A stretch of DNA of 63,964 bases, counting the filler, from Kipferlia bialata (taxonomy: Eukaryota), in the NCBI GenBank assembly GCA_003568945.1. It is 5 parts of 5 records of this genome, joined end to end, with 100 filler letters (N's around TTAATTAATTAA, not from the genome) between each part and the next. Parts side by side here need not be neighbours in the genome. Positions count along the whole stretch, not along the records: positions 1 to 27,807 come from BDIP01000163.1; 4 more parts are not named here. One strand, written 5' to 3'. Positions within the stretch are counted from its first letter, which is position 1, and the number at the start of each line of letters is the position of its first letter. The notes under the pieces are model-generated. The model worked only from the letters and a program-made list of their open reading frames with translations. It ran no database searches and was not told the DNA's origin. A program made the position numbers and the translations under genes. This document shows positions 1 to 39,771 of the stretch, in pieces.

Positions 1-3000
1 CAAGCGTCAGGGTCATGGGTTATGATCTACACGATAGCTGCCAGACGTTCTTTGCTAAGCGGCACATAGGTGGGTCACGGTATCTTCGATTTGCACTAAG
101 CTATAGCTACTGTGATTTAGTCTTCCATTGGCTTATTGCTGAGCATACAATATATGACCACCTGACTCTTACGCGATAGGTGTATGTCCCCAGCTCAATG
201 AGAACCTGTGGGTGGATCTCTCAGTGGAGCAGAACGTCATCAATGCTCTTAGGTCAGCAACCACATAAGTTTGGTATTTGTCAATTAGTTGTGAATCCCT
301 TTCTCTCCTAACCCCAGGATCCGTGGTGTCACCTCCAAGTCTGAGCGTGAGTCTGTCTGCCACACCATTCTGAAGGGGGTCAGACTGTTGCAGCACAGGA
401 ACAGAAAGGTATATATTGGTGCATATATTTATATCTATACATGTGTTAGTATGTGTATCTCGATATAGTTGCATGTATATTACTTGTCATTGTGTTACTC
501 TGCTCACCCCTAGGTCCATGAACTGTCTGGTGGCATGCAGCGCCGGCTGTCCCTGGGACTGTCATCTGCAGGTGGGATATATACACGCATATATATATAT
601 ATATATATATATGTCTATCTACCATCAATAATATACAACACTATTATTTGCGTTCTTACCATGTCTGTACTATGCCATCTGCATGTGAGAGACTATAAAC
701 TAGCATACTTTCTAATCCACAGGCTCCCCCAGTCTCATCTTCCTTGATGAGCCAACCACTGGCCTGGACCCAGCTACCAAGAGGGCGGTGTGGTATGTAA
801 ATATGGATACATCAGTATTTATACTATATATATATATTTATGCATAGGATTTCTTTCTCTATACATGATGTCTCTGGACTGGACCCAGTCACAAGAGGGC
901 AGTGTGGTACGATATCCATTACAGTTTACAGTACAAAGGAATTATTTGATGCTCTTCATACACTCTGTACTGACTCCTCATGTCACTTCTCATTCGCTAT
1001 ATTTCCACTATTATACGGTATACACATGTATCCATCCCTCACCCCCAGGTCCTACATGGCAGGTCTGAGGGAGCAGGGCAGTGCATGTCTGTTAACATCA
1101 CACAGCATGGGGGAGGTGGGACATATTATACATGTATGAATGTATTAGTCTGTTAGAGTGTATCTATATATGTATATTCTCTACATAAATAGGCAGTGCA
1201 TGTCTGTTGACATCACACAGCATGGGGGAGGTGAGGATATGTATCATGCTGTATATGTGAACGTGACTATGATTCATAGATGCCCTCCTGTATTCATTCT
1301 CACTCACTAGGTCCAGCGCCTGGCCTCAGAGATCAGCATCCTGCACAGGGGACACGTGCTAGGTATATCTTTGTATAGATAGTGTATGTATCACCGACTC
1401 CTCCTTTGCTCTACGGCTGAGACGTGGTGAATACATGTATATATATATATATATACATATATATGGATACACACAATGTCTGTGTGTAGGACTTCATCTG
1501 GTAGTAAATGGAAGATGTGCACCATATGAATGCTGGATATATGTAGTATATATGAAGTATATTGTGTATAATGTAGATGTGTGCAGGATACTGTTGTAGA
1601 GTATGACTCACTTTAGACACCGGTTCCTCCTTCGCCCTGAGGCAGAGGCATGGTGGATACACTGTCACCATATCCATAGACAGCACTCAGGAGACAGGGG
1701 GAGAGGGAGAGGGTGTGTGCCAGAGTGTGGTGGATACAGTGAGGTACGGGACTTGACATTCCCACACTTATACCCGGGATTGACCCTATCATTCCACCAT
1801 GTAGCCGATAATTGTATTGTTTCCCTCTCGATGTGTTTTCGTACTCATATGCTAATAGCTGTCAGGTCAGTAGTGCTAGCTGCTTCTCCCAGTTAACACA
1901 GTCTCTCCCTCTCGGTCTCTCTTTATGGATGTATATGTGAATCTTACCTTCAGATCTGTAGCCCCCGCGGCCTCTGTCTCTCTCTTGTCACAGCATGTTG
2001 TGACACTGTCAGTCCCCAAGGAGGATGGAAGACTCCTACCTCAGGTATCAACGATATCAACTACTCTCTCTCCTACTACAGGTATACATAATAGCAGATG
2101 TTTTATTATACTCCTTACTCGATGACTACTATGCCATTATGTTTCAGTCCCCAAGGAGGATGGGCGTCTTCTACCTCAGGTATCGACGACTATTCCTTTT
2201 CCTACTCGATCTCTCCCTCCCCCCATTCTTACGCGATAGGTGGCCAGGAACCTTGAGGAGCAGAGGAGGCGGGGGCATGTGACAGACTTCCTCATTGAGA
2301 GGTAAGTGTGTGCAGTATGAGTTCTACTCACACAAACATTGATTTACATCACTCACAATCAGAGCCTCTGAGAGCATGTGTTCACCATTATTATTCATAG
2401 TGAGTATGTTTCCGATACGTGAGTGACTCTTCTTACCCCCAGGGCCTCATTGGAGCATGTCTTCACCTCCATGGTGGGACATGACCTAGACACAGACACA
2501 CATGCAGAGACACAGGGAGAGGGGGGTGTACCTTCATCCTCTGCTACTGTGGGTATTGAGGACACTAAGACTCTCATGCAGAGGCCACTCTCTGGGTGGC
2601 CCTGGGGTGTGTTCAAGAAGGCCTTCCTGGTGGACCAGGCACAGAGTGGCATGGGTGTGTACATTCATTATATATATACATATATATTCATACATGATAC
2701 TATACTGTATATTCGTGATACCGCTTTCTTTCACCAATATATACCACTGCACATCTTACCATCCTGGAAGCTTGTTTCTGCCCCAGAGTTGATACTTCTC
2801 TCACCCCAGGTGTGTTTAGGCACCTGATACTCGCTGTTGTCCTGCTGTGCATCAATGCAGCACTGGTGGCTGTGACAGGTATATACCATATATCATATAT
2901 GATAGTACGAGTATATATATCATATACAATAACTATATGACATTCTCTATTCAATGTGATGATATGTGTTTCTATGTCCTGTTCTGCATCAATGCCGCCC

Positions 3001-6000
3001 TGGTGGCTGTCACAGGTATGTATCGTGTAAGTCCAGTTCCTTTCTATTATGCGTGTGTTTTACTCAATACACTCTATACATACACTCCCGGTTGTAGTTA
3101 CATACATATATTTGACATGCCTCTCATCCCTCAGGCCCCATCCTGGAGCAGTTCTCCAAGACATGGTACCAGACAAACTACACGGAGGTAGTATTCCATA
3201 CTATATCTGCTATGCTGCTCTCTGTCCACTCTCTCGCTATCAATATACCCTCACCTATAGACCCAAACCCTATATCTTGGTTACTTAATACTATATACTA
3301 TATACTCTCTCTCTCTCTTTCCATACCCACTTACTCTAGACCCTGTGCCTAGGTTACTCTCTCTCCACTCTCTCTCTCTCTCTCGCCTTAGATATCCTCT
3401 AACTGCTAGACCCAGACCCAGTGCCTGGACTGCTGTGCCCAGTATGGCTATCTGGATCTGGACTCATGCCTCGATGACAGGTGGGCTTTCTCACTCTCTC
3501 TCTCTCTACCTCTCTCTCTCATATATCTTGTGTCTCTTACCCCCAGACCCCATGGCTTTCACTGTCTCTCTCTCTCTGAGTCTCCATATATATGACAATT
3601 GTGTAATATATATATAGTATCTCTATCTGACTTCAGACCCCATGACTGTCATACTCTCTATCTCTCTCTCTCTCTATCTCTCTCTCTCTATCTCTCTCTC
3701 CCTTGTCGTATATACCTCTTACCCCCAGACCCCATGACTGTTTCCGAACCAATGTCGGTGTCTACCTGAGCAGCGACCCCTGCTACAACTACTTGCTCTA
3801 TGAGGTATGCGGGTATCAGTATATCTATCATGAGTATATATGCATGGGTAGGTCACTTGCCACTTGCTCCTTATCTGACACTCAGGGCCTTGATGTCAAC
3901 TGGGAGTTCCCCTACAAGATCAACGACCCATCTACGGTGCTAGGGGAGGTATTGATGGCTTTGAATATCTCTCTCCAGTAATAGTGTGACAATATGCCTT
4001 TGTTGCCTCGTGTGACAGTGCAGTGTATTCTAAGAAGTTTCTACAGTTATACCATTGTTTGATTGTTGCCTACCATCTTACTCTACAGTTCGGTGTAGCC
4101 ACCTGGGGCTTCGAGAGCATGGGTGCCATCAATTCCTACGCGGGTAGAGAGGGCGAGTGGCCACCATCGCGTAGCTCTGCAGCAGACCTCGACAGCATCA
4201 TACCCTACGGGTGGATGGGCGATGGGTACCTAGGTACGACTATACCATTCAGAACTAAATTCGTAGTGTTCATATGTTGTCTTTATAGTGTATGAATTAC
4301 TGTATCTCACCCCTAGTACAATTCAGACTACTCCTATTATACGTGTTGCCTATACACATGCCTTGGCACTACTCACCCTAGTCAACAACGCCAATGGGCA
4401 CATTGACCAGAATGTACTGGATGCACACTGGGACAACATGTACATAGACAAGGCAAGTATAGATATATATACAGACCTATATATACATACATATATATAC
4501 AGATATGGTATGTATACATGTATAAATAGTGATGCACACTNNNNNNNNNNNNNNNNNNNNNNNTATGTATACATGTATAAATAGTGATGCACACTGGGAC
4601 AACATGTACATAGACAAGTAAAGATATTGATACCAATATATATATATATACGTATATATTGTATTGTGTAATACATATACATATTGAATACATGTATTCA
4701 TTATATATATTACAATATATTAATTGCATATACTTATACATATACATGTTTTATGTATATGTACATAGACTAAGTGTGTGTACCACTTTTCAAATCCTTC
4801 TAACTTCAGGACCCTGTCCTCTACCCCGACCCCAAGGACGAGGATACCAGAGGGTTCTGGCCATTCCTGGGAAGACGGTATGTCAGGATGCATATCATAT
4901 ATAGATACATACAAATATATATACAAATGTGTAACAACCGTAAATATTTATATACCAGAGGGTTCTGGCCATTCCTGGGAAGACGGTATGTCAGGATATA
5001 TATGTATTCATATATATACTTATTCGAGTATTAAGAACATCTCCTTACCGACTCTTGTGTATTCCTAGCGACTGTTAACCTTCAGGTTCATTAGCGCATT
5101 CAGAGACGACTGCCAGAACAGTGTGTATGACTGTGAGTTTGAGTGCAACTATGCACTGGCACCATTCGCCAAGTACAGTGGAGATGACACATTCGACCAG
5201 AACCAGTGCATGTGAGTGACATGTATATATGTACTTTATGTATTTATGGCATCTCGTGTATACATATATATATGAGTTCTTCTTTCTAATTCTTTTGAAC
5301 TTCAGCACAGACTGCAATGCCTAGAGTGACCATCATTAGTACAGCATGTATACGTATTTACATATCTTCATTGTGTATGTGTAATTATTATTCATGTATC
5401 TAACCTCAGCAACGACTGCAATACCAAGAGTGACTACTACATGGCCAACTGCAATGGTGAGTGGGTGAATATACGCACTAGACTAGGCTTGCTTATGGAT
5501 AATAGTAGAGTGTTGTGATTTTTGATTGTGTCATAGTAATATATAGTATTATAGGAGTGTTCTATAGTGTAATATGCATTGCCATCTGCAGTAGTGAGAA
5601 ACTAAGAACACTAGACTAGGCTTTCTTAGTGGATAATAGTATAACATTTTGATTTATAGTGTCATATGCGTGGGAAACTGCAGTGGTGAGTGGTTGTAGG
5701 CACATACATTCATATATACATTGAGTATTTTCCATATATATGTATACACTTTGCCTCTATACTATCTGACTCCTAGCTGACCCCTGGATCTCTAACAGCA
5801 CCATCGACATATTCACATACGACACTGTCGACGACATGAACAAGGATATTGTGAGGTGGGTCAATACTGTATATTCTAAGATAGTTTATTGTAAGTATTC
5901 ATGTTCTAACTACATGGACAGGGACATTGTGAGGTGAGGAATACTTAACACATATACTGTATTTAGGCCAAATAGTGTTTCTCTCTCCCACTCTCACTCT

Positions 6001-6524
6001 AGCATGCAGCGCACCACTGACTACTTTGGCTATGAGAATGACGCATATGGGTACAACCTGGCCATGAGGCAGATGAGACGAGTGCTGCCCAATTACATAG
6101 GTACATATTATGTATATATCATATAGTTATGCATATTCCTAGATAGTTGTGTATGGGTATAACCTGGCCATGAGGCAGATGAGGAGGGTCCTACCCAACT
6201 ACATCAGTACGTTATCCTTCTCTCTAACTATATATCCTCTTTGTCGATAAGCACTGTACTTTGACTTTCTTGACCTCTTTCCCCCTCTCTCTCTGTTTGT
6301 CTGTGTGTTACTATATTAGTATGTGGCTCACATCAGTCGAGTCCCTGTACCTAGACTTCCCTGACCCCTCGGATGTCACTGGTGTATCAGTATCAGATAC
6401 TGATACTGCCACTGATGCTGAGAGAGAGGGGGAGAGAGAGGGGAAGAGAGATATTGGAGATGAAGACCTCTCCCACTATGCATACAGGATGCACACATGG
6501 CTGCCCAACACACCCAGGGTGAGG

Positions 6525-6558
<34 letters not shown>

Positions 6559-9500
6559 GACTCACGATATTTCTTAAGTCTAATGTCAGACCCCTTGGGC
6601 ATACTCCCATTCTCTCTCTCTCTCTCTGACTAACAATAACTCATAAGCCTGCCTCTAAAGTCTTACTATCAGACCCCCTGGGCATACTCGCATGCTAGTC
6701 TGAACCTGCAGTTGCACAATGGAAGGTATGCATTTCCTGCTACATTGTGTTAGTCCTTCATTGTCCAACATTGCTTGTGACAGATGTCTCCGTAAACTTG
6801 TATTCTTTGATTCAGTCCCTAACTTCCAGCCACCTCTTTCAGGTCAACACTCATTTGTATACTCAAACACATTTGCTACTCTATTATTGGGCCTAGTGTT
6901 ATTGTATTACTCTCGCTTCTCTCCTACTTCCAGCCACCTTGTCCAAGTAGTGTTGACGCTTCACTCTAAGAAGTAATTCATTGTTCAACATTGTTTGTGA
7001 CTCTTATTAACCTATATATTCCTTGCTTTGGTAACTAACTTCCAGCCACCTTGTCCAGGTCAAGTATCAGAGTCATTTGCTATTTAGAATTGAATTATCC
7101 CTTCATTCCCCCATTCCGATATCATTATCTTTGATCCCTTACAATCAGCCACCTTGTCCAGGTCAACAAGGAGGGCCAGGCGTCGATCTCTGAGAACATG
7201 TACGCACCCTATTTAACTGTGGAATTGCTGACCACTGTATTATGTCATCATATTGTTATACAGTGGATATATACATTCGGAGGGCCAGGCATTCATCCCA
7301 GAAGACATGCACCGTATTCTTTTCCTATACTGCCGTAGTTAGACTCTGACACCCTGTAGATGTTGTATGCGTCATTATATATCTAACCTCAGTCGGTTCC
7401 ACATGAGTACCCTCTTTTGGTTCAGATATCTCTCTCTCTTACATCAGTCGGTTCTACATCAATGCTATCTCGACCACCGATCATCGACTGGTCTGACATA
7501 TGTTGTATATAGTGTACACCTAAGTTGGAAGATCAGATAAGCCTTTCGCGCTGTCTATATATATGTTGGACTGCGGGTGAAATCTAACCCCAGTCGTCAT
7601 ATATGTATACAAGTGTATAGGTCTCTAGCACGTACGTGTATATATTCACTATGGCATATGTGGCCATGTGATGACGCTGCCCACTAGTTAGTGGTGTATG
7701 TGAGAGCACTTGAATGTATTGCATACACTCACCACTAGGGTCCCTGTGCTGTGGATCGGCATGGTCAATGACGACATATCACGTACCACCCAGACAGCTA
7801 TGGCCAGGGGGTATCAGGTATATATGTATATATATAGTGTATCTGTATATTAACATGTATGTAGTATATGTATATACATATCCCGTACCACAGACAGCTA
7901 TGGTAAGAGGGTACCAGGTACTACTGTATATATATATATATATACATGTGTGTGTGTGTGTGTGTGTGGGTGTTGTATCTATCTCTTTCTCTCTCTTGCG
8001 TATATATACTCAATATCTTACCCATATATCTATCTATCCATATATATGTATTATATCAATGTCTCTACCCTCTAGAGCATGCACCCAGGCCATGCCATGG
8101 TATATATATATATATATATATATTGTATCTCTCCTTCTCTCTATGTACCTTGCATATTGTCTCAATGTCTCACCCCCAGAGCATGCACATATTATAGGAT
8201 TATATTACACAATTTGCACAATCATCTATCTTACCCCTCCAGAGCATGCACCCAGGCCACGGAATGGACGTGTCCCTAGGCGTCAAGTGAGTCATATATT
8301 GTCTTAGCAAGTATTGCACCCATATACATGTCGTTGTGGAATGGCTTCAGTGATGTTTGGAGTCCTCAGATACATCATATTTGACATTACCTCTTGATAT
8401 GCCCATCTAACCACCAGATACATCCAGTACCCCTTCATCGCAGACCCCTCCTACACAATGGACACAGGTATGTTTATGTTATATATATATGTGTGTGTAT
8501 TTATAGACTCATAATTGATATATTCATAGCAGACTCCTCCTACACAATGGACACAGGTATATGTGTATGTATACATGCAGTGTCTATTATTCTATTTTTA
8601 TAATAGTACTATTCCATATATATGTATGAATATTGAATGTAACACATATTCAGACACCTCCTACACAATGGACACAGGTGAGTGAGAGATTTGATACTAT
8701 TATGACTCATCATTCCAGGTGCCCTCCTGTCCCTTCTGACTGAGCTGTTGTCATCATACACAATACTACCTGAATACAGATATATATATATACATATGTA
8801 TATGTATGTGTGTATGTGAGTGTAACCTCATTCCAGGTGCCCTCCTGTCCCTGCTGACTGAGCTGTTGGCTCCTATCGTGGCACTGGTGTTCATTCCAAG
8901 GTGTGTAGATGATTGGAATAGGAATTGCTGTTATTATTGCGTTGTATATGGAGCATTGTATGTTCATTTCAGGGTTGCTGTCTCCCTGGCCTCTGACCTT
9001 AATGTATTGCTAAATGACAATACTTATAGAGACTTACACTTTGTTAGTATCTTGAATGTGCATCTAGAGTACTCATTACAGAGTTGCTGTCTCTCTGGCC
9101 TCTGACCTTGAGAACGGCAGGGTCAGACTTCTCAGGATACACTCTCTGTCCCCTGCATCCCATACGCTCATGGTGGCTGCATACTATGGTGTACAGGGTG
9201 AGGACTGTTTATACATATATACAATGTCAAGTTGCACATTCAATTTATGGAGAGGAACGTATGACTGCTCCAGGTGGATACTTGATTAGCCGCTCTCTCA
9301 AAGATACCTTACCTCCAGGTCTCTGTGTCTCTCTGCTAGCTGTCCTCATCGGCTCTGTCCTTGGGCTGTCTCTCTTCTCAGAGGACCTGCTCCAGACCTT
9401 CACCTCCTTCCTCCTGGGCACATGGGGTTGTGTCGCATGTGGGGCACTCATAGGTATATATATCTATATATGTATATATATGTATGAAGAATCTATATTG

Positions 9501-12500
9501 ATGTATTGGTTGTGTCGCCTGTGAGGCACTCATAGGTCAGTATGTCCCCTTTACACGTTCTGCTGCATAATGTTTGTATATATAGAAATATATTTCAAGG
9601 GCATTCGGAAGTACTCTCAGTGCATCTCACCCCCAGGTGTTACCCTCAAGCGCCAGGCCCCAGCCTCGATAGTGTCCAGTATCCTGATGGGTGGGTTACT
9701 TCTGCAACTATTTCTACATATTTGCCCATTCGTGACTATCTCCATCAATTTTTCTCTTTGCAAGGTTTATCATGTCTGTCTATCCATCTCTCTCTGACCC
9801 CTCAGTCTGCTCCCTGGTCCTGGGTGTGTTCGTCCCCCCAATGGCAGGTGAGGGTGTACTATTCGTATCACTATTCACATGTATATATAAGTATTACTAT
9901 TCCAATGGCATGTATCCAAGTGACCACTATACGTATACGTTTACATATATACTCTATGTATTGTTCCATACAGGTGGATTCTCCCCCCCCCCCCAAGAGC
10001 AGGTCAGTATGTGTGTCTGTTACCCTACCCCTTTCAATACTTGTTGGGCTGTGTGATATTACATTCTCGGCATCCTCACAATCAGGCATGTTCCTGTTCC
10101 CCCCTCTTGCCTTCTGTGACATGTTGTCCCACCCGTCCTCCACTGAGCACCTTCCCGAACAGTGTGTAGTGGGCATAGCGCTCTATCTAGCTGGAGCATG
10201 CCTGGTACAGGTACACATTACTAGTGTACGATGTCCCATATACTGTATACTAAATACTCTTTGAATCTCACACCTAGGCTGAGAGTGTGAGGGATGCCCT
10301 CGTATCAGTGGTCAGAGCCACAGGCAGAGTGGTCAAGGGAGTGGCTGCATATGTAGCTGGTCTCTTTAGTGGGAAGGCTGAGACAAGGTATATACTATCA
10401 GTCACACTCACACTCACACACACTCACACATACACACACTACACACACACACACACATATGTATTCATTGAATATCACGTACCTCTAATGTCTATTGGCT
10501 TCGAGAGTAGTATATATACTAATGCACATGTATATCTCAAGGTGAATATGTCTCACCACTAGTGAGGCAGAGCAAGATTCCAACATCATGTCCTCATCCA
10601 CATATGTCTATACGTTATATATATAAATGTTTCAATGTCATCATTTAACTAGCAGCACTCCAGAGGACGATGTCCTTCTATCCTATATATATATATGTGT
10701 ATATATATATGAGTATTCAAGTATTGGTTACCAACCACTAGCACTCCAGAGGACGATGTCCTTCTGTCCCATGTACCCATTGTCAGTGAGAGTGAGGATG
10801 ATCATGATGAGTACGAGTATGGGAGAGAGCCAGTGGCAGATAAGGCACCCTCTCCCGATGCCAGTCTGTGCCTGACAGACATCCATCACACATATAGCAA
10901 CGGTACTAAGGTATGGGTGTTAATGTAAGTTAGTATATACATGTTCTCTCATGATTACTTACCCCCTAGGCCCTCCGGGGTGTCTCCCTGACCCTGAGGC
11001 AGGGTGAGGTCTATGGACTCTTGGGTGTGAATGGGGCTGGGAAGACAACACTCATTAACTGCATCACAGGTATCTATAGTATATATATGAATACATATAT
11101 AGTATATATAGTATATGGTGTATATAGTATATGCATTTAATGGTATATGGACTATTGGGTGTCAACGGGGCTGGGAAGACAACACTCATTAACTGCATTA
11201 CAGGTACTAATTTGTGTGGTTGCATTATTAGCATATGAGTGTAGTGTTTGCGATAGTATATTTATATTCAGGTGTTCTTCAATCTAGGAATAGTGTCATT
11301 CAGTCCATCTAATCATAGGCATTCTCCACCCCGACTCCGGCAAGGGCATGCTCTACAATATCATAATTATATATTAATGCATGTATAGTATTCTTTGTAC
11401 TGTATATACATATATAGTATATCTGCATTAAATCACAGGCATCCTGCACCCTGACTCTGGCAAGGGCATGCTCAGTGGCCAGTGCATGTTTGACAGGGAG
11501 GGAGGGGCAGAGAGGACAGAGGGAGAGGGTGCGGAGGGAGAGAGGGCCACTGTCAGTGACCATGTGGTCTGTGTGCCCCAGCACGACCTCTTCTGGCCCA
11601 ACATGACTGTGAGGTACGCGGTTAGCCTTATCGTGTAGGAATGGATAGTCCCATACCAGGTAGCAAATTGGTACCTTAGATACTCTCTAATGATCAGGCA
11701 GCACATGGACCTGATTGCTGAAGTGCGTGGGAGAGAGAGTGGTGTAGTGGACCAGGCTCTGAGGACGGTGGGACTGACACAGCATGCAGACAAGAGGGCA
11801 GGTACCGGATTACTATAGTCATAAGTATACGTATATACACGGTATTATATGCACCTATACAGCATTCAGACAAGAGGGCAGGTACTGGATCACTATCATA
11901 TATTTGGATATATACTGTAGTATCTATCCCTGGAAGGGAGTGGGCAGACAGCATAAGACGTAGCTTACATATGTATTACGGTCTCCCCCTCCTGACTATT
12001 GTCCTTTGCTTCCTTCTCTCTCTCTGTTAGGTTCTTAAAAGTGTATCAAACCTGTATTCTGCGCTGTATTCTTAATTGTATTCGACACGTGTCTATTATG
12101 TGTCCTAACCCCAGGTGAGCTGTCTGGTGGTATGAGACGCAGGATGTCTCTAGGCATGGCTGTGTTGGGGGCCAGGTCCATACTCCTAGCTGATGAGGTG
12201 TGCACATTGCAGATGCAGTATATGCTTTCGTATTATATCAGCATGACAGTTCTTAACCACAGTCCACCACTGGCCTCGATGTCACCAGGATTACTTACAT
12301 TAATCATTTTAGATCATGTATACATATGTATCAGTGTCAGTATCCACCAGTATATAGGATATGTATTATGGTACATCAGTCTGACTGTTCTCTAACTATT
12401 AGCCCACCACCGGCCTAGATGTAGCAAGGATTGGTTACAATAATCATTTAAGAATATGTATTTATATGCATTATCATTAGTTTTATAACACTTACCCTCA

Positions 12501-13667
12501 GCCCACCACCGGCCTCGATGTAGCGACCAGTATATAGGATATGTATTATGGTATATATCAGTCTGACTGTTCTCTAACTATTAGCCCACCACCGGCCTCG
12601 ATGTAGCAACTAGACAGGGCGTGTGGACAGGTCTGCTAGAGGCAGCTGCCTCACTCACTGTGGTACTCACCACACACTCGATGGGGGAGGCAGAGGCCCT
12701 GGCTGACAGGTACTGGATATATATAGACATATGTATTGGATAAGGGTATATATACTGATACTGAAACTGTAGACATATGTATTAACTGTTTCTACATACT
12801 TGGGGGCAGAGGCTATATGAGACAGGTAACTACTATTATATTTGTGTGTATAATCGTTTGCACCCTTAGTACCTCAGATGCGTATACATTTGTATTTGTT
12901 TACTAGGCCTGGTGTGTGTATGTATCCACCCTTACCCCAGATGTGGTGTGCTGAGGAAGGGCCAGCTGGTGGCACAGGGGTCAGTGCTAGAGCTCAAGAG
13001 ACAGGTACTGATGAATATTTACTCCACTATATATACTATATTGTATATGTATACATTACATATATGGTGTATGTGTGAAGAGACTGGTGCATGCACTCCT
13101 TGTATTCTCAGGCTGCACTATTAATTGTGTACCTTCGTAGTGTAATATGTATTTGAGAGACTCAAGCAACCCTTTGCTAACCGCACTCACCCCAGGCAGC
13201 AAATGGTGTAGTTGTCCAGCTCCGCAGTGCCCCTGTGTCAAGCACCAGTGACATTGTGGACAGATCAGTGCAGACCCTGGCAGACAGGTGTTATACACAA
13301 TATAGAGATAGAGTTCATTACTACTATTTATGATTCTTTCCTATATATATATATCAGTGCAGACCCTGGCAGACAGGTTGGCGATATACAACATATATAG
13401 AGAGTACAACTATTCACTATATGTTCTGTCTGACGCAGGATCAGAGCCGACTGCCCTGTGGTGTCAGAGGAGAGAGAGGGAGAGGGAGAGAGGGAGGGAG
13501 AGGGAGAAAGTGTCACCCTCAGACTGGCCCCTGACGCCACTCTCTCCACACTCTATGCCCTACTGTGCGGAGAGGGAGAGAGAGAGAGAGAGACTGGAGT
13601 GATGTGGAGTGTATCTTCAGAGCCGCTGGAGGAGATATTCTGCAACCTGGCACAGATTGACTACTAA
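1..13667 (+). CDS. Full-size ABCA-subfamily ABC transporter, multi-exon, 5' partial
   Basis: NBD1 exons: [10 protein letters not shown] (~181), [13 protein letters not shown] (~520), [13 protein letters not shown] (~733), LLTSHSMGE (~1090), SLEHVF (~2446). A large Cys/Tyr-rich exodomain and TM exons follow (~2800-10210). NBD2: [12 protein letters not shown] (~11015-11050), [19 protein letters not shown] (~12116), [27 protein letters not shown], ending [18 protein letters not shown] at 13667. Exon boundaries inferred by eye. Confidence 0.9.
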
Positions 13668-27960: not shown

Positions 27961-30900
27961 GTCAAGCGGTCTCTGGGTGAGGGTCACTTCGCCAAGGCCT
28001 CTCTGTGCACATATGCACCCAAGGTATAGAATATACAGATGTGGGAGAACGGTGAAGTCTCTAATCAATAGTTATCCACCTTGATCCCCATGAATATACC
28101 CATTAATGTGTTGTACACATCCACCCATATATGCATATATACACACACAATTATGTACTGACCCCCAGGACCATGGCACTGTCACCCATAGGGAGAGTGG
28201 CAGAGATGTGGTGCTGAAGGCTGCTGTTCTACCCAATGATGCAGAGACAGGGGAGTACAGGGAGATGGTGACCAGACTGCAGAAGGTATATGAATCTATA
28301 TATATATATACATATGTATATATATACTACTATATATAAGGCTGCTGTCCTACCCAATGATGCAGAGATAGGGGAGTACAGGGAGATGGTGACTAGACTG
28401 CAGAAGGTATGAAGATATAGTAATTCTCTTCTATATACCAATTTCTTAATATCTGTGCATATCTCTATATCTATTCTCACAGCCCCAGGTGTCCCACCCC
28501 GCCCTACTACCCTACACCCTTCTGCAGGATGTCCCCGGGGTCAAGGACAGCCCGAGGTACATTTATATATGTGTAATAATAGTGTATTAGTGTTGCATAT
28601 ACTGGTGTACACATATATGTGTATGTATTTTTATATTTATGTACGATGTGCCAGGGGTCAAGGACAGCCCAAGGTACTATGTACTTCTTCATCATTTCCT
28701 GGTCTTTCTATCGTATTCATCGTGTATTATATGTTATTCTATGTTATATTTGTGTTGTGTTTCTTTTGATTGTGTGTACCTCTGTATTTACATATACCTG
28801 TCTCTCTTATAACCCCCAGGGTTGTGTTCCTAGGCAGACCCTACCTCCGAGAGTCCCTCCCATCCAGACTGGGGTCCAGACCCTTGTACTCTGCTGTCAG
28901 GGCATGGCTCTCGTACTGTGCGATACGGTGAGTGAGTATTAGTATTCTTTCCCTCTTCCTAGTAGTATGTTTATTGTTTGTAGGTCTAACCCCAGTGCCG
29001 TTGACGCTGCCCACTCCCTGTATGGCGCCCATGGGTCTCTCTCCCCCAACAACCTCCACCTGGAGAGTGGCATACTGGTGCTGACTGACTTTGCACCCTT
29101 CAAGCCACAGGTACTCTTTCTCTCTCTCTCTGTCTCTCCATCCCTCTATTAATATTCAGGCCGTACCCATGTTCGACCCAGCCTACTTCTCCTTCTCCTT
29201 AGATACTCTCTCTCTCTCTCAATATATATACATACTTATACTACTGTAGACTCATGATTAGGCTGTGCCCATGTCCGACCCAGCCTACTTCTCCTTCTTC
29301 TTCGATGCCCTGGACAGGAGGGACTGCTACCTCAGCCCAGAGAGGTTCCAGAGCACACTCGACGCAGGTAGATGACCCTATATATATATATATATATAGG
29401 TCCTCATATTCATATGTATACGTGTTTATGGATCAATTGTACTGATTGTATTGCTCATCCTCACCCCCAGGCACCCCCACCAAGGCCGGTGACCTCTATG
29501 CCCTGGGTGCAGTGTTGGTGTACATGTGGAGTGACGCGTGTCCATTCAGGTATATTCAGAACCTACGTGTGTCACATTTTATACCGTGCTTTACGTACTA
29601 TCTGCTGGATGTTTCCTTCTCTCACTGATCTCACCCCAGCCTCTCTGCGGCTCTTGAGATAGCTGCTGGTAGGGGCGACCCTAGAGAGGCAGCCCAGTGC
29701 GTTCCAGAGGCCCTAAGGTAGATATTTACTTTGTATCAATATCGTATGTATATATGTTTATGTTTTTTGCTCAAACCAGGCCCATTGTCAGATCCTTCCT
29801 GTCTGCTGACCCCTCTGAGCGTATGACAACTGCAGAGGCACTAGGGAGGCTGAACAATACAGACAATGCAGATGATTCAGAGAGTTCAGAGTGTGTGTTC
29901 CACCCCTCCTATGCCACTGTGTATGATGCACTGTGTAAGAGCATAGAGGGGGGCAGTGTGTCAGAAGGAGAGAGAGAGACTGGGGCTGGTCAGAAGCCCT
30001 CTGCGCTGACTCCTGAGATAGTGCATGACCTGTTGAATGGTACCTATAGGGTAGAGACAGAGGTAGAGGGTGCAGTGGATAAGGAGAGGGAGGGAGAGGG
30101 AGAGGAAGCCGTTGCTATAGAGGTTGAGGAGCAGAGGGGTAGTGGTCTGAGGATGGTACTAGGAGACAAGCCAAGGGACACAGGCTTCAACTGGTGCCCA
30201 GCACCCTCAGGTACATACACGTACATCATGTACCTATACACCGTCACTTACCCTAGAGACAGTGACCCTTAGTGAGGCCCGTGACCTCTCTCGCTTCCAG
30301 CGCACCAGTACCAGCCAGTGTGAGCAGACCTCCCCCACCCCCGGTTCCCTCTCCATGTCTGGTGTGAGTGGCATGTATCAGACATGCGTGTCAACTAGGG
30401 TGGTACAGGGTACACCTGGTGTACAGATACAGTCTGATGAGGATACCTTGTTAGGCGGTGCAGTGTATGTTAAGCAGGAGGGCGGGACAGGGGAGAGTGG
30501 GACACGTGTGCTGGTAGACTCCCTGCCCCTGCCTAGACAGAGAGTGCCCCAGAGGGGGAGCGAGGGTGGGAGAGAGCCCACTTCATTCACAAGGACACAG
30601 GAAGAGAGGTATGTGTATATTACATACCAGTGATTGACTCAATGTGCAGTGTCTAACCCCCTAGGTTCTCTTCCCATGCCACCCTGCGTGACAGCATGAC
30701 TGCCTCTCTCAATGGAGGAGAGAGAGAGAGAGAGGAGCCTGAGGGGGAGGGCCAGGTTGTGTGGTGGCCTTCTGCTGCTCTGTCTGTACCCTCCATGCCC
30801 CCTGTGGCTGCACCCTTTACTCTTGGCAGTGTGTGTGCACCACTGTGCCCTGGGCCAACAGTGGCACTGATGCGGTATGTAATACTCATATGTATATGTG

Positions 30901-32189
30901 TATATGTGTTTTCATATGTGTATGTGTATATGTGTTTTCATTATACTATAGTGTGTAACCCCCAGTGTCCTGTCCCGCCGTGCCCTGTCCGTGTGGGCCA
31001 GTCAGACCCCTACCAAGGTGTGGGTGAGGATGAGTGAGGGGGAGACAGAGAGGGAGAGGGAGAGGCGCAATGCCACCGAGGGACTAGGGGTGCTGTCCAG
31101 TCTGGCCATGCTGGTGCCAGGTGGGGATCATTTCTACATAATATTCTTGATATTCACATGTGTATGTCTTCTTCTCTTTCTCTCTCTTCCTACTGTTCTT
31201 TCCTTGTGTGTTTGTCTTATCCCCAGGCTCCCCCGACCCAGTCATCTGTGAGTGTGTCCTGCCCCTGTGTGTCACCCTACTGGGCCGTCTCTCTCTCTCT
31301 CAGTCTCGTGCCAAGGAGAGGCAGAGGAGAGAGGGGGAGAGAGAGAGACAGGCAGACAGAAAGCGCAACTCGACAAAGAGAAGGACTCAGAAGGGGCAGA
31401 GAGAGGAGGGTGGGAGTGAGGGCAAGAGTGGAGCAGAGTCTGGAGCTGATGTTGCCGTACTCACTGCTGTCCTCGACCTGCTACTTCTCTGTCTGCAGCA
31501 GCTAAACCTGGTGACTGCTCTGCCAGGTGGGTGTATATACATACATACATATTTAGAGATAGATGGTCCTATTTTATGTGATGTTCTCTTATTGATATAT
31601 TTGTTCGACTTCTTTTCTAACTCCCAGGTCTACTTGACGTCGTTCTCTCTGTACTTAGCAAGCTGACCCCCTCCCCGGTTGACACCCTTAGTCTAAACGA
31701 TCTGCACCGCATATCCCCACTCATCGAGAGGGTCCCCCTCATATGCGGGGAAGTCGCTAGGTGTGTGGATACTGATATGATTTGTATATCAGTCACTTTC
31801 TGTACACATCTGTATATATTCTCTCCCTGACCCTAGACTGGGGCGCAACTGCAACACCCTCGACTCTGGGTCTGCCTTGAGTGACAGAGATGCATGGCTG
31901 TGGCTGCTGGCCACACAGGGTGAGTATATTATTTTTGCCACCATTGTATTGGGTCTTAAGTATTATATACGGGTGCATATGTTCTAATTCTCACCCCAGG
32001 TGTCATCATTGATGTCCTTGTCACCACATCTAGGGACCCCCTACTCCGTGTACACTGTGGGGCACCACTCCTGCAGTGCATACACACCCTACCACTCCTG
32101 GTGCCATGCATACAGGCAGCAGGTGTGTAATTTGCAGTCCATTTGTATTCTCTATTCACGTTGATCCCCCCCCCCCCCCCCCCCTTTTC

Positions 32190-32235
<46 letters not shown>

Positions 32236-39568: not shown

Positions 39569-39625
39569 TGGGGTTATAGGGAAAGGGGGGGGGGGGGGGG
39601 GGGGGGTTTTTTTTATCATACAAGA

Positions 39626-39725: not shown

Positions 39726-39771
39726 TGGTTTTTTTTTTTTGAGAGCCCCCCCCCCCCCCCCCCCACCACAG

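What the first reader, a model, noticed from the sequence alone, without database searches (positions are those of the whole stretch)
6046..6212. Intronic copy of an exon end is synonymously recoded (clearest example of a window-wide system)
Seen: the ABCA exon end 6046-6100 and the intronic copy 6152-6206 both encode [18 protein letters not shown]. All 8 nucleotide differences in the full codons are silent (tac/tat, aga/agg, cga/agg, gtg/gtc, ctg/cta, aat/aac, ata/atc). Both end in a phase-1 GT donor. The copy has no in-frame acceptor, and the intron sequence after the two donors is unrelated. A dead duplicate should mutate at all codon positions. Inference, with alternatives: (a) the copies were coding until recently and were captured from a diverged allele or haplotype by recombination or templated repair, which would imply cryptic inter-allelic exchange; (b) duplication and deletion cycles swap copies in and out of the reading frame ('backup junctions'); (c) some splicing route uses them. 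Dozens of cases occur across unrelated genes and contigs here.
Basis: partly seen in the sequence, partly recalled or inferred. Interest (0 to 1): 0.88.

Follow-up and report, generated by a model that had tools for sequence, protein, structure and literature searches.

The report
Fossil exon ends inside protist introns
In the protist Kipferlia bialata, over a third of the introns examined hold a short copy of the neighbouring exon's end or start that differs mostly at silent positions, likely former working exon boundaries pushed into the intron when DNA repair wrote in a new one from a different allele, which would make these introns a record of past recombination.

Summary
The focal pair differs at 9 of 55 bases: 8 silent, 1 V-to-I in the split codon. 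Window exons match named Kipferlia bialata proteins. In 13 hand-built gene models, 53 of 136 introns carry a direct copy of the upstream exon end plus GT, or AG plus the downstream exon start; wrong-polarity controls give 0 of 178. Over 73 copies dN/dS is 0.18; four-fold sites differ at 95 of 405 and zero-fold sites at 78 of 1618, far beyond a dead duplicate (P 5e-9). Yet the copies are decaying, those nearest the exon least, and a TA-rich spacer separates each from the working site. Best reading (0.5): old working boundaries displaced by new ones copied from diverged alleles during break repair. No reads were available, so splicing and physical linkage are untested, and no diverged second allele was found. 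The anatomy resembles amphioxus 'mirages' and the human F7 repeat, and this scan noted single-locus arrays of that kind in other genomes. The density, selection signature and unrepeated intron part were not found in ten literature searches. Three metagenome loci from other eukaryotes look the same.

The parts
1..13667 (+). Host gene: ABC transporter, 48 exons in my model, 5' end missing at the contig edge; 23 of its 47 introns carry a copy
   Evidence: open 1421-codon model with GT/GC-AG introns; PF00005 on one exon
6003..6100 (+). Working exon (inferred); 6046-6100 is the duplicated end
   Evidence: frame continuous with the neighbouring exons
6101..6151 (+). Working GT donor plus 51-nt AT-rich spacer; in-frame AG at 6145-6146 without branch motif
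6152..6206 (+). Focal intronic copy of the exon end: 8 silent differences, 1 V-to-I in the split codon
6207..6336 (+). Copy's own GT donor and the rest of the intron up to the working acceptor; holds a weak, decayed copy of the next exon's start at 6254-6278 (score 30, near threshold)
6337..6518 (+). Next exon
11142..11203 (+). Donor-side copy of the P-loop exon end, 5 silent and 0 replacement differences in 20 codons
12252..12530 (+). Three acceptor-side copies of the exon start at 12585, each with its own AG
15472..15808 (+). Four donor-side copies of the exon end at 15433; three form a true 108-nt tandem array including intron sequence
17424..17475 (+). Strongly diverged acceptor-side copy with conservative replacements, a TCT/AGT serine switch and an in-frame 3-nt gap
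24483..24955 (+). Three donor-side and two acceptor-side copies in one intron; database model P0007 treats 24568-24609 and 24906-24971 as exons
28338..28406 (+). 69-nt donor-side copy in a gene on the second contig, 2 silent and 1 replacement
47780..49075 (-). Five scored copies in three introns of a PF04240 gene on the minus strand (third contig)
52273..53178 (+). Three donor-side copies in a gene on the fourth contig

Best explanation
These are short direct copies of exon ends and exon starts, each with its own splice signal, that likely were working exon boundaries until DNA break repair wrote a new boundary, likely copied from a diverged working allele, plus a TA-rich spacer on their exon side. 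Shown: the anatomy, the strict polarity, the silent bias, the mild decay, the order of decay and the spacer composition. Inferred steps: (1) a break falls in an exon 20-70 nt from a junction; (2) one end is extended on a homologous template from another lineage, across the splice site and a few bases into the intron; (3) synthesis turns into about 40-100 nt of low-complexity TA-rich DNA and is joined to the other end, which still carries the old boundary and the old intron; (4) only products that keep one complete exon survive, which gives 'exon end + GT' downstream and 'AG + exon start' upstream; (5) the spliceosome would use the outer sites, because a copy has only one of the two signals that define an exon; (6) the displaced boundary then decays, and repeated events push older copies deeper. 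Silent differences would be allelic divergence from the time both versions were coding (about 0.2 per silent site in the nearest copies); replacements would be mostly later decay.
For: Silent bias: 95 of 405 four-fold sites vs 78 of 1618 zero-fold sites, P = 4.8e-9 against a dead-copy null; it holds without the focal pair, with one copy per junction (58), in ungapped copies, on both sides and in three gene sets. Simulated dead copies give a ratio near 2 (highest 3.6 in 160 runs) vs 4.9 observed. Diverged but working-type signals: GT kept in 42 of 45 and AG in 25 of 28; copy donor score median 8.4 vs 9.8 for working donors and -0.4 for random intronic GT; branch motif at 19 of 28 copy acceptors; only 7 of 45 donors and 3 of 28 acceptors are identical to the working one. 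Now dead: 7 of 73 have frameshifting gaps, 2 have stops; zero-fold changes run GC-to-AT (40 of 814 vs 20 of 804, P = 0.012) while four-fold changes are balanced; using a copy's site in place of the working one gives a frameshift or stop in 70 of 73. Order: in 11 multi-copy junctions the nearest copy has 4 replacements in 297 sites, the farthest 13 in 251 (P = 0.012). Spacer vs old intron: TA frequency 0.23 vs 0.17 (35 donor junctions, P = 5e-4) and 0.20 vs 0.12 (22 acceptor junctions, P = 0.002); the inner values match copy-free introns. Each copy adds about 117 nt to an intron. Context: metamonads lack Ku and DNA-PKcs, fornicates lack Rad51A and have two Dmc1 paralogs, so recombination is likely their main break repair (PMC8516963, section 8 read). 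Database models P0002 and P0008 use the outer sites throughout.
Against: No diverged allele was seen: P0007 and P0008 each have one member on one contig, P0002 is identical on two contigs, and the published draft of the species has 69 single vs 6 duplicated complete BUSCOs (PMC5874029 supplement 1). The donor must therefore be a past mating or hybrid partner, which is unobserved, and silent divergence near 0.2 between alleles is very high. Intron flanks are far more different than silent sites (only 8 of 73 pairs above the 95th control percentile), which needs de novo spacer or fast intron turnover. The microhomology signal is marginal (1, 4 and 2 of 60 simulations reach the observed value). 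The floor on spacer length (49 nt or more in 58 junctions; 39-43 nt in three weaker hits) is not explained. At least three arrays are plain tandem duplications. No RNA or long reads were examined, and P0007 includes two copies as exons. Gene models are my own hand annotation.
Confidence: 0.5

Rival explanations
1. Self-duplication first, allele exchange later: a boundary is duplicated in place (mirage-like, with filler), and ordinary allelic gene conversion in a very polymorphic population then replaces the working exon end while the copy stays frozen.
For: Gives the same silent bias; 19 copies have no silent difference vs 11 expected under one rate (heterogeneity P = 0.003); three arrays repeat the intron part too; the first 3-12 intron bases are more alike than controls (0.58 vs 0.38 and 0.40 vs 0.29 on the donor side).
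Against: Needs conversion to uncouple sites 100 nt apart within the short life of a copy. Copy and working splice signals usually differ even when the exon parts are identical. It needs the same unobserved allelic diversity.
Confidence: 0.2
2. The copies are still read in some mRNAs, as cassette micro-exons or through an unknown splicing or RNA-recombination route, so selection acts on them now.
For: Low dN/dS; consensus-like signals; P0007 includes two copies as exons; the focal copy has an in-frame AG that would give a 60-nt exon after a 46-nt intron; no snRNA candidates were found in K. bialata (PMC6679479, passages), so its spliceosome may be unusual.
Against: Branch motif plus in-frame AG before only 3 of 45 donor copies (any branch-plus-AG 5 of 45, background 12%); GT after 18 of 28 acceptor copies (background 73%); AG|GT inside the duplicated part in 3 of 73; no excess of AG exon ends or GT exon starts for re-splicing; frameshifts, stops and AT-biased decay. 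Inclusion would duplicate a peptide at a third of junctions.
Confidence: 0.1
3. Backup junctions or programmed collapse: deletion between the two repeats restores a normal short intron using the copy's splice site, often enough, or in a programmed way, that both copies are under selection.
For: Removing one unit leaves a normal-sized intron (core median 100 nt vs 97 nt for copy-free introns); single-strand annealing appears available to metamonads (PMC8516963).
Against: By inference, pairs that last long enough to reach dS near 0.3 must collapse at about the mutation rate or less, too rarely for effective selection; a programmed version has no support; the decay gradient and frameshifts show release from selection.
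Confidence: 0.08
4. Assembly artefact: diverged haplotypes or strains concatenated by a short-read assembler.
For: The assembly is fragmented, and one scaffolding artefact is visible (32-nt overlap across the N run at 4541-4563); the species draft is short-read and described as diploid (PMC5874029); no reads were checked.
Against: Spacer-to-copy junctions lie in N-free sequence; up to five versions occur at one junction, more than two haplotypes give; copies carry stops and frameshifts that live alleles would not; polarity is strict; the same anatomy occurs in three independently assembled metagenome contigs.
Confidence: 0.07
5. Capture from paralogous genes rather than alleles.
For: A few copies are as diverged as paralogs (17424-17475, 24559-24609, 24796-24848).
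Against: Searches with exons of the two genes holding those copies found only the gene itself (1 hit at E up to 1; 1 real hit plus 2 unrelated repeat proteins). Both used 41-44 residue queries and are weak evidence of absence.
Confidence: 0.05

Closest known systems
Amphioxus 'mirages' (Adh3, globins BflGb6 and BflGb9, PGBD5; PMC3087553 and PMC3902484, passages read)
   Same: Direct duplications of exon-intron boundaries at both 5' and 3' ends, lying in the intron, with cryptic AG/GT, reported not to disturb splicing; units of 150-160 bp in the globins; mechanism stated as unclear.
   Different: Mirages are minisatellite-like arrays with whole units 81-100% identical, at a handful of loci. Here 53 of 136 introns are affected, mostly with one copy; the intron part is mostly not repeated; exon and copy differ with dN/dS 0.18. 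The passages read report no such selection signature.
Human boundary minisatellites with silent pseudo-donors: F7 intron 7, CBS, 6-16, LMNB2, PDGF (PMC1557585, passages read)
   Same: The donor is reiterated downstream and the most upstream one is used, which is the rule assumed here.
   Different: Near-identical units with little exon sequence (4 bp in F7), donor side only in the passages read, single loci, no coding-type divergence.
Rogers model of intron gain by tandem duplication of an AG|GT-containing exon segment (PMC2891723, passages read)
   Same: Short intragenic duplication involving exon sequence.
   Different: It creates a new intron from a proto-splice site inside the duplicate; only 3 of 73 copies have one. 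Here an existing intron is lengthened.
Tandem or mutually exclusive exon duplication (own knowledge)
   Same: Gives diverged copies under purifying selection with unrelated introns.
   Different: No copy covers a whole exon (at most 85%) and the opposite-polarity remnants it predicts are absent (0 of 86, 0 of 92).

Membership tests
Mirages / exon-intron boundary minisatellites | Direct duplication that spans an exon-intron boundary and lies in the intron | tested here: met
   73 copies; 41 of 45 and 25 of 28 alignments reach within 2 nt of the splice site
Mirages / exon-intron boundary minisatellites | Occurs at both 5' and 3' boundaries | tested here: met
   45 donor-side and 28 acceptor-side copies
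Mirages / exon-intron boundary minisatellites | Whole unit, intron part included, repeated at high identity | tested here: not met
   8 of 73 pairs above the 95th control percentile; only 3 arrays of period over 100 in 1-27807
Mirages / exon-intron boundary minisatellites | Multi-unit arrays with copy-number polymorphism | tested here: inconclusive
   11 of 58 junctions have 2-3 scored copies; no second individual was available
Mirages / exon-intron boundary minisatellites | Splicing uses only the authentic site | not testable with these tools
   no reads; database predictions agree for P0002 and P0008, not for P0007
Rogers tandem-duplication intron gain | AG|GT proto-splice site inside the duplicated segment | tested here: not met
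   3 of 73
Mutually exclusive or tandem exons | Complete exon copy with both acceptor and donor | tested here: not met
   coverage 12-85% of the exon; branch motif plus in-frame AG before 3 of 45 donor copies; P0007 is a possible exception
Recursive or nested (twin-intron) splicing | First splice regenerates a GT donor or AG acceptor at the junction | tested here: not met
   exon starts with GT in 4 of 23 with a copy vs 27 of 113 without; exon ends in AG in 29 of 35 vs 70 of 101, P = 0.19
Introner-type mobile introns with target duplication | A shared element sequence among the inserts | tested here: not met
   cross-junction intron alignments score at background, median 20; the 20 largest repeat families shown include no shared insert beyond microsatellites

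The most novel reading that the evidence does not exclude
K. bialata, and some other microsatellite-rich protists, rewrite their exon boundaries as a routine outcome of recombination-only break repair: a new boundary is copied from a diverged partner genome, and the old one is left behind in the intron. One haploid assembly would then hold tens of thousands of ordered fossils of former alleles, a direct record of cryptic sex or hybridisation in a group where neither has been seen, and a main driver of intron length. It would also imply exon-definition splicing in an organism with introns of about 100 nt.
Probability: 0.35. Interest if true: 0.9.

Novelty: new variant of a known kind. Interest (0 to 1): 0.74.

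Why it matters
Sex has not been observed in metamonads (PMC8516963, passage). If the copies are displaced alleles, the introns record past genetic exchange and its diversity from a single genome, and public DNA and RNA reads could test this at once. The origin of boundary duplications such as mirages is stated as unclear (PMC3087553); here there are enough cases to count, date and order them. The structures also show which of two competing splice sites a short-intron spliceosome picks, and they can mislead gene prediction (P0007 may be a case).

Tried and rejected
Reads: no DNA or RNA reads could be examined, so linkage and splicing stay open. Whole genome: none held, so all counts come from this window. 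Protein search with an ABC-gene exon found nothing. Pfam gave no family for the focal exon, P0007 or the two metagenome exons, and only a sub-threshold hit for P0008. Rejected: chance (controls); a dead duplicate with or without in-place gene conversion (it cannot exceed a 2-fold ratio); transition bias (four-fold vs zero-fold test); alignment-threshold bias (simulation); Rogers-type intron gain, recursive splicing and whole-exon duplication; a fixed repair-tract length (copy length and spacer length are uncorrelated, rho 0.02, 53 junctions with spacers under 110 nt); spacers as whole introns with a worn acceptor (branch motif near the end of 7 of 33, background 22%). Not modelled: the short-intron gene at about 43300-47200, the minus-strand gene at about 60100-61200 and the ankyrin gene at 62000-63900; the ungapped repeat scan listed no such pair there. 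My first exon for the gene at 23018-25872 was wrong (P0007 starts further upstream), so its 27-nt 'intron' should be ignored; it remains among the 136.

Full report
Setting. The window is six contigs joined by spacers. Exons from three genes match named Kipferlia bialata proteins at 100% (P0002, P0007, P0008), so the organism is that free-living fornicate. No whole genome was held and no reads could be examined. I built 13 gene models by hand from the sequence. All are open, with 136 introns, 134 GT-AG and 2 GC-AG. Four of the five models that could be compared lie whole inside database proteins; the fifth differs from P0007 at its start and by two extra exons.

The focal pair. 6046-6100 and 6152-6206 differ at 9 of 55 bases. 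Eight are silent; the ninth would change V to I in the split codon. Both are followed by GT. The introns behind the two donors share 10 of the first 20 bases and align no better than background further on. An in-frame AG lies 5 nt before the copy but lacks the branch motif. Taken alone the pair gives P = 0.002 against a dead copy, which is not decisive for the best of 73.

The pattern. Exon ends recur in the following intron at 35 of 136 junctions and exon starts recur in the preceding intron at 23 of 136; 48 introns have either. Wrong-polarity and foreign-exon controls are at or near zero. An anchored search raises the count to 53 of 136, with no control hit at its threshold. Copies are 18-69 nt long (median 33), cover 12-85% of the exon and end at the splice site. 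In the 10 introns with both kinds, donor copies always lie 5' of acceptor copies. Each copy adds about 117 nt; none occurs in the 63 introns under 140 nt and 53 of the 73 longer ones have one, which is partly built in, since a copy and spacer take up room. The distribution is uneven: 41 of 76 introns in four genes vs 7 of 60 in the rest.

The selection signature. Over 772 codons there are 135 silent and 94 replacement differences (dS 0.31, dN 0.055, ratio 0.18; codon positions 57, 31, 141). A dead copy beside a working exon should differ about twice as often at four-fold as at zero-fold sites. Gene conversion between the two can only lower that ratio (inference). Observed: 95 of 405 vs 78 of 1618, P = 4.8e-9; bootstrap range of d0/d4 over 58 junctions 0.11-0.26. 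Simulation with transition bias and the same alignment filter gives about 2, at most 3.6 in 160 runs, against 4.9. Replacements are slightly more conservative than random (P = 0.011). So both versions were coding for most of the time since they split.

They look dead now. Seven of 73 have frameshifting gaps, two have stops and six lack GT or AG at the aligned position. Zero-fold changes lean GC-to-AT and four-fold changes do not. Using a copy's site instead of the working one breaks the frame or meets a stop in 70 of 73. Copies do not have the missing second splice signal more often than background. Rogers-type, recursive and whole-exon routes fail their tests. Against this, P0007 includes two copies as exons; the species' models are AUGUSTUS predictions with transcript hints (PMC5874029), so this may be real inclusion or mis-mapping.

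Which is old and which is new. In 11 multi-copy junctions the copy nearest the exon has fewer replacements than the farthest (4 of 297 vs 13 of 251 sites). The DNA next to the working site is richer in TA than the DNA next to the innermost copy's site, and the latter matches ordinary introns. The copy's splice signal is usually a different, consensus-like version of the working one. Similarity runs only about 12 nt into the intron, even where the exon parts are identical. The simplest reading is displacement: the copy with the inner intron is the former boundary, and the working boundary with its spacer was written later from a diverged coding template.

Mechanism. I favour break repair on a diverged homologous template, followed by low-complexity synthesis and end joining (0.5). 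Fornicates lack classical end joining and Rad51A and depend on recombination (PMC8516963, section 8). That Dmc1 tolerates mismatches is recalled, not from a call. The weak point is the donor. No diverged allele or paralog appears in the protein databases and the species draft has few duplicated BUSCOs, so exchange would have to be historical. The closest rival, self-duplication with later allelic conversion (0.2), needs the same diversity. The spacer floor of about 40-50 nt, close to the shortest introns here (46, 51, 54 nt), is unexplained by either.

Elsewhere. Of 129 loci from two motif scans, three of the four richest in microsatellites show the same anatomy (L029, L091, L128). L091 has a donor-side copy with 6 silent changes and 1 replacement in 22 codons (the boundary codon left out). 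L029 has two acceptor-side copies and one donor-side copy with 5 silent changes, 1 replacement and a 1-nt gap. Their frames are inferred; the L091 frame has a lead-level match to PPC domains (0.89). They carry GATA and telomere-like repeats unlike this window and were not identified. These are small numbers from a motif chosen for TA-rich introns.

What is known. Boundary duplications are known as mirages in amphioxus (PMC3087553, PMC3902484; passages) and as boundary minisatellites in human genes (PMC1557585; passages). This finding works like them in layout and probably in being ignored by splicing. It fails their defining whole-unit repetition in most cases. Ten searches found no report of this pattern in Kipferlia or of such a selection signature. 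The library lacks most subscription papers, including the original Adh3 mirage paper. Of the genome paper PMC5874029 I read parts 1-2 of 6, passages and supplement hits; its main text has no occurrence of 'duplicat', 'allel' or 'heterozyg'. PMC6679479 and PMC2891723 were seen as passages; other papers only as search listings. Supplement files of the mirage papers were not read.

Verdict. A real, statistically strong, window-wide feature; a new variant of a known kind. The origin from diverged alleles is the best reading but unproven. Interest 0.74.

Noticed in passing
window 4509-4595: A 32-nt sequence is repeated exactly on both sides of a 23-N gap: a scaffolding artefact beside a real exon-end copy.
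   Followed up: yes
window 4453-4454 and 40850-40851: Two GC-AG introns, both starting GCAAGT.
   Followed up: partly
window 7594-7604 and 10563-10589: Micro-exons of 11 and 27 nt are needed to keep the ABC transporter frame open.
   Followed up: partly
window 47337-49292 (minus): PF04240 (carotenoid biosynthesis, DUF422) gene whose other hits are 34-42% identical metagenome proteins, possibly a transfer from prokaryotes; it already has introns with copies, and an identical protein is recorded on a second contig.
   Followed up: partly
window 24568-24609 and 24906-24971: Database model P0007 treats two copies as exons, giving a protein with local repeats; real inclusion or annotation error.
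   Followed up: partly
window 32166-32234, 39585-39606, 39746-39764, 49958-50007, 50108-50156, 51258-51328, 61204-61219, 63912-63955: Long C or G runs in intron 3' ends; several contigs begin or end at them.
   Followed up: no
window about 43300-47200: A gene with short introns, few TA repeats and no copies, unlike its neighbours; not modelled.
   Followed up: no
L029, L091, L128: Other, unidentified eukaryotes with the same exon-boundary copies, GATA repeats and telomere-like motifs in their introns.
   Followed up: partly
L103 161-300: A direct repeat next to a donor-like site in a TA-rich locus; possibly a fourth case.
   Followed up: no
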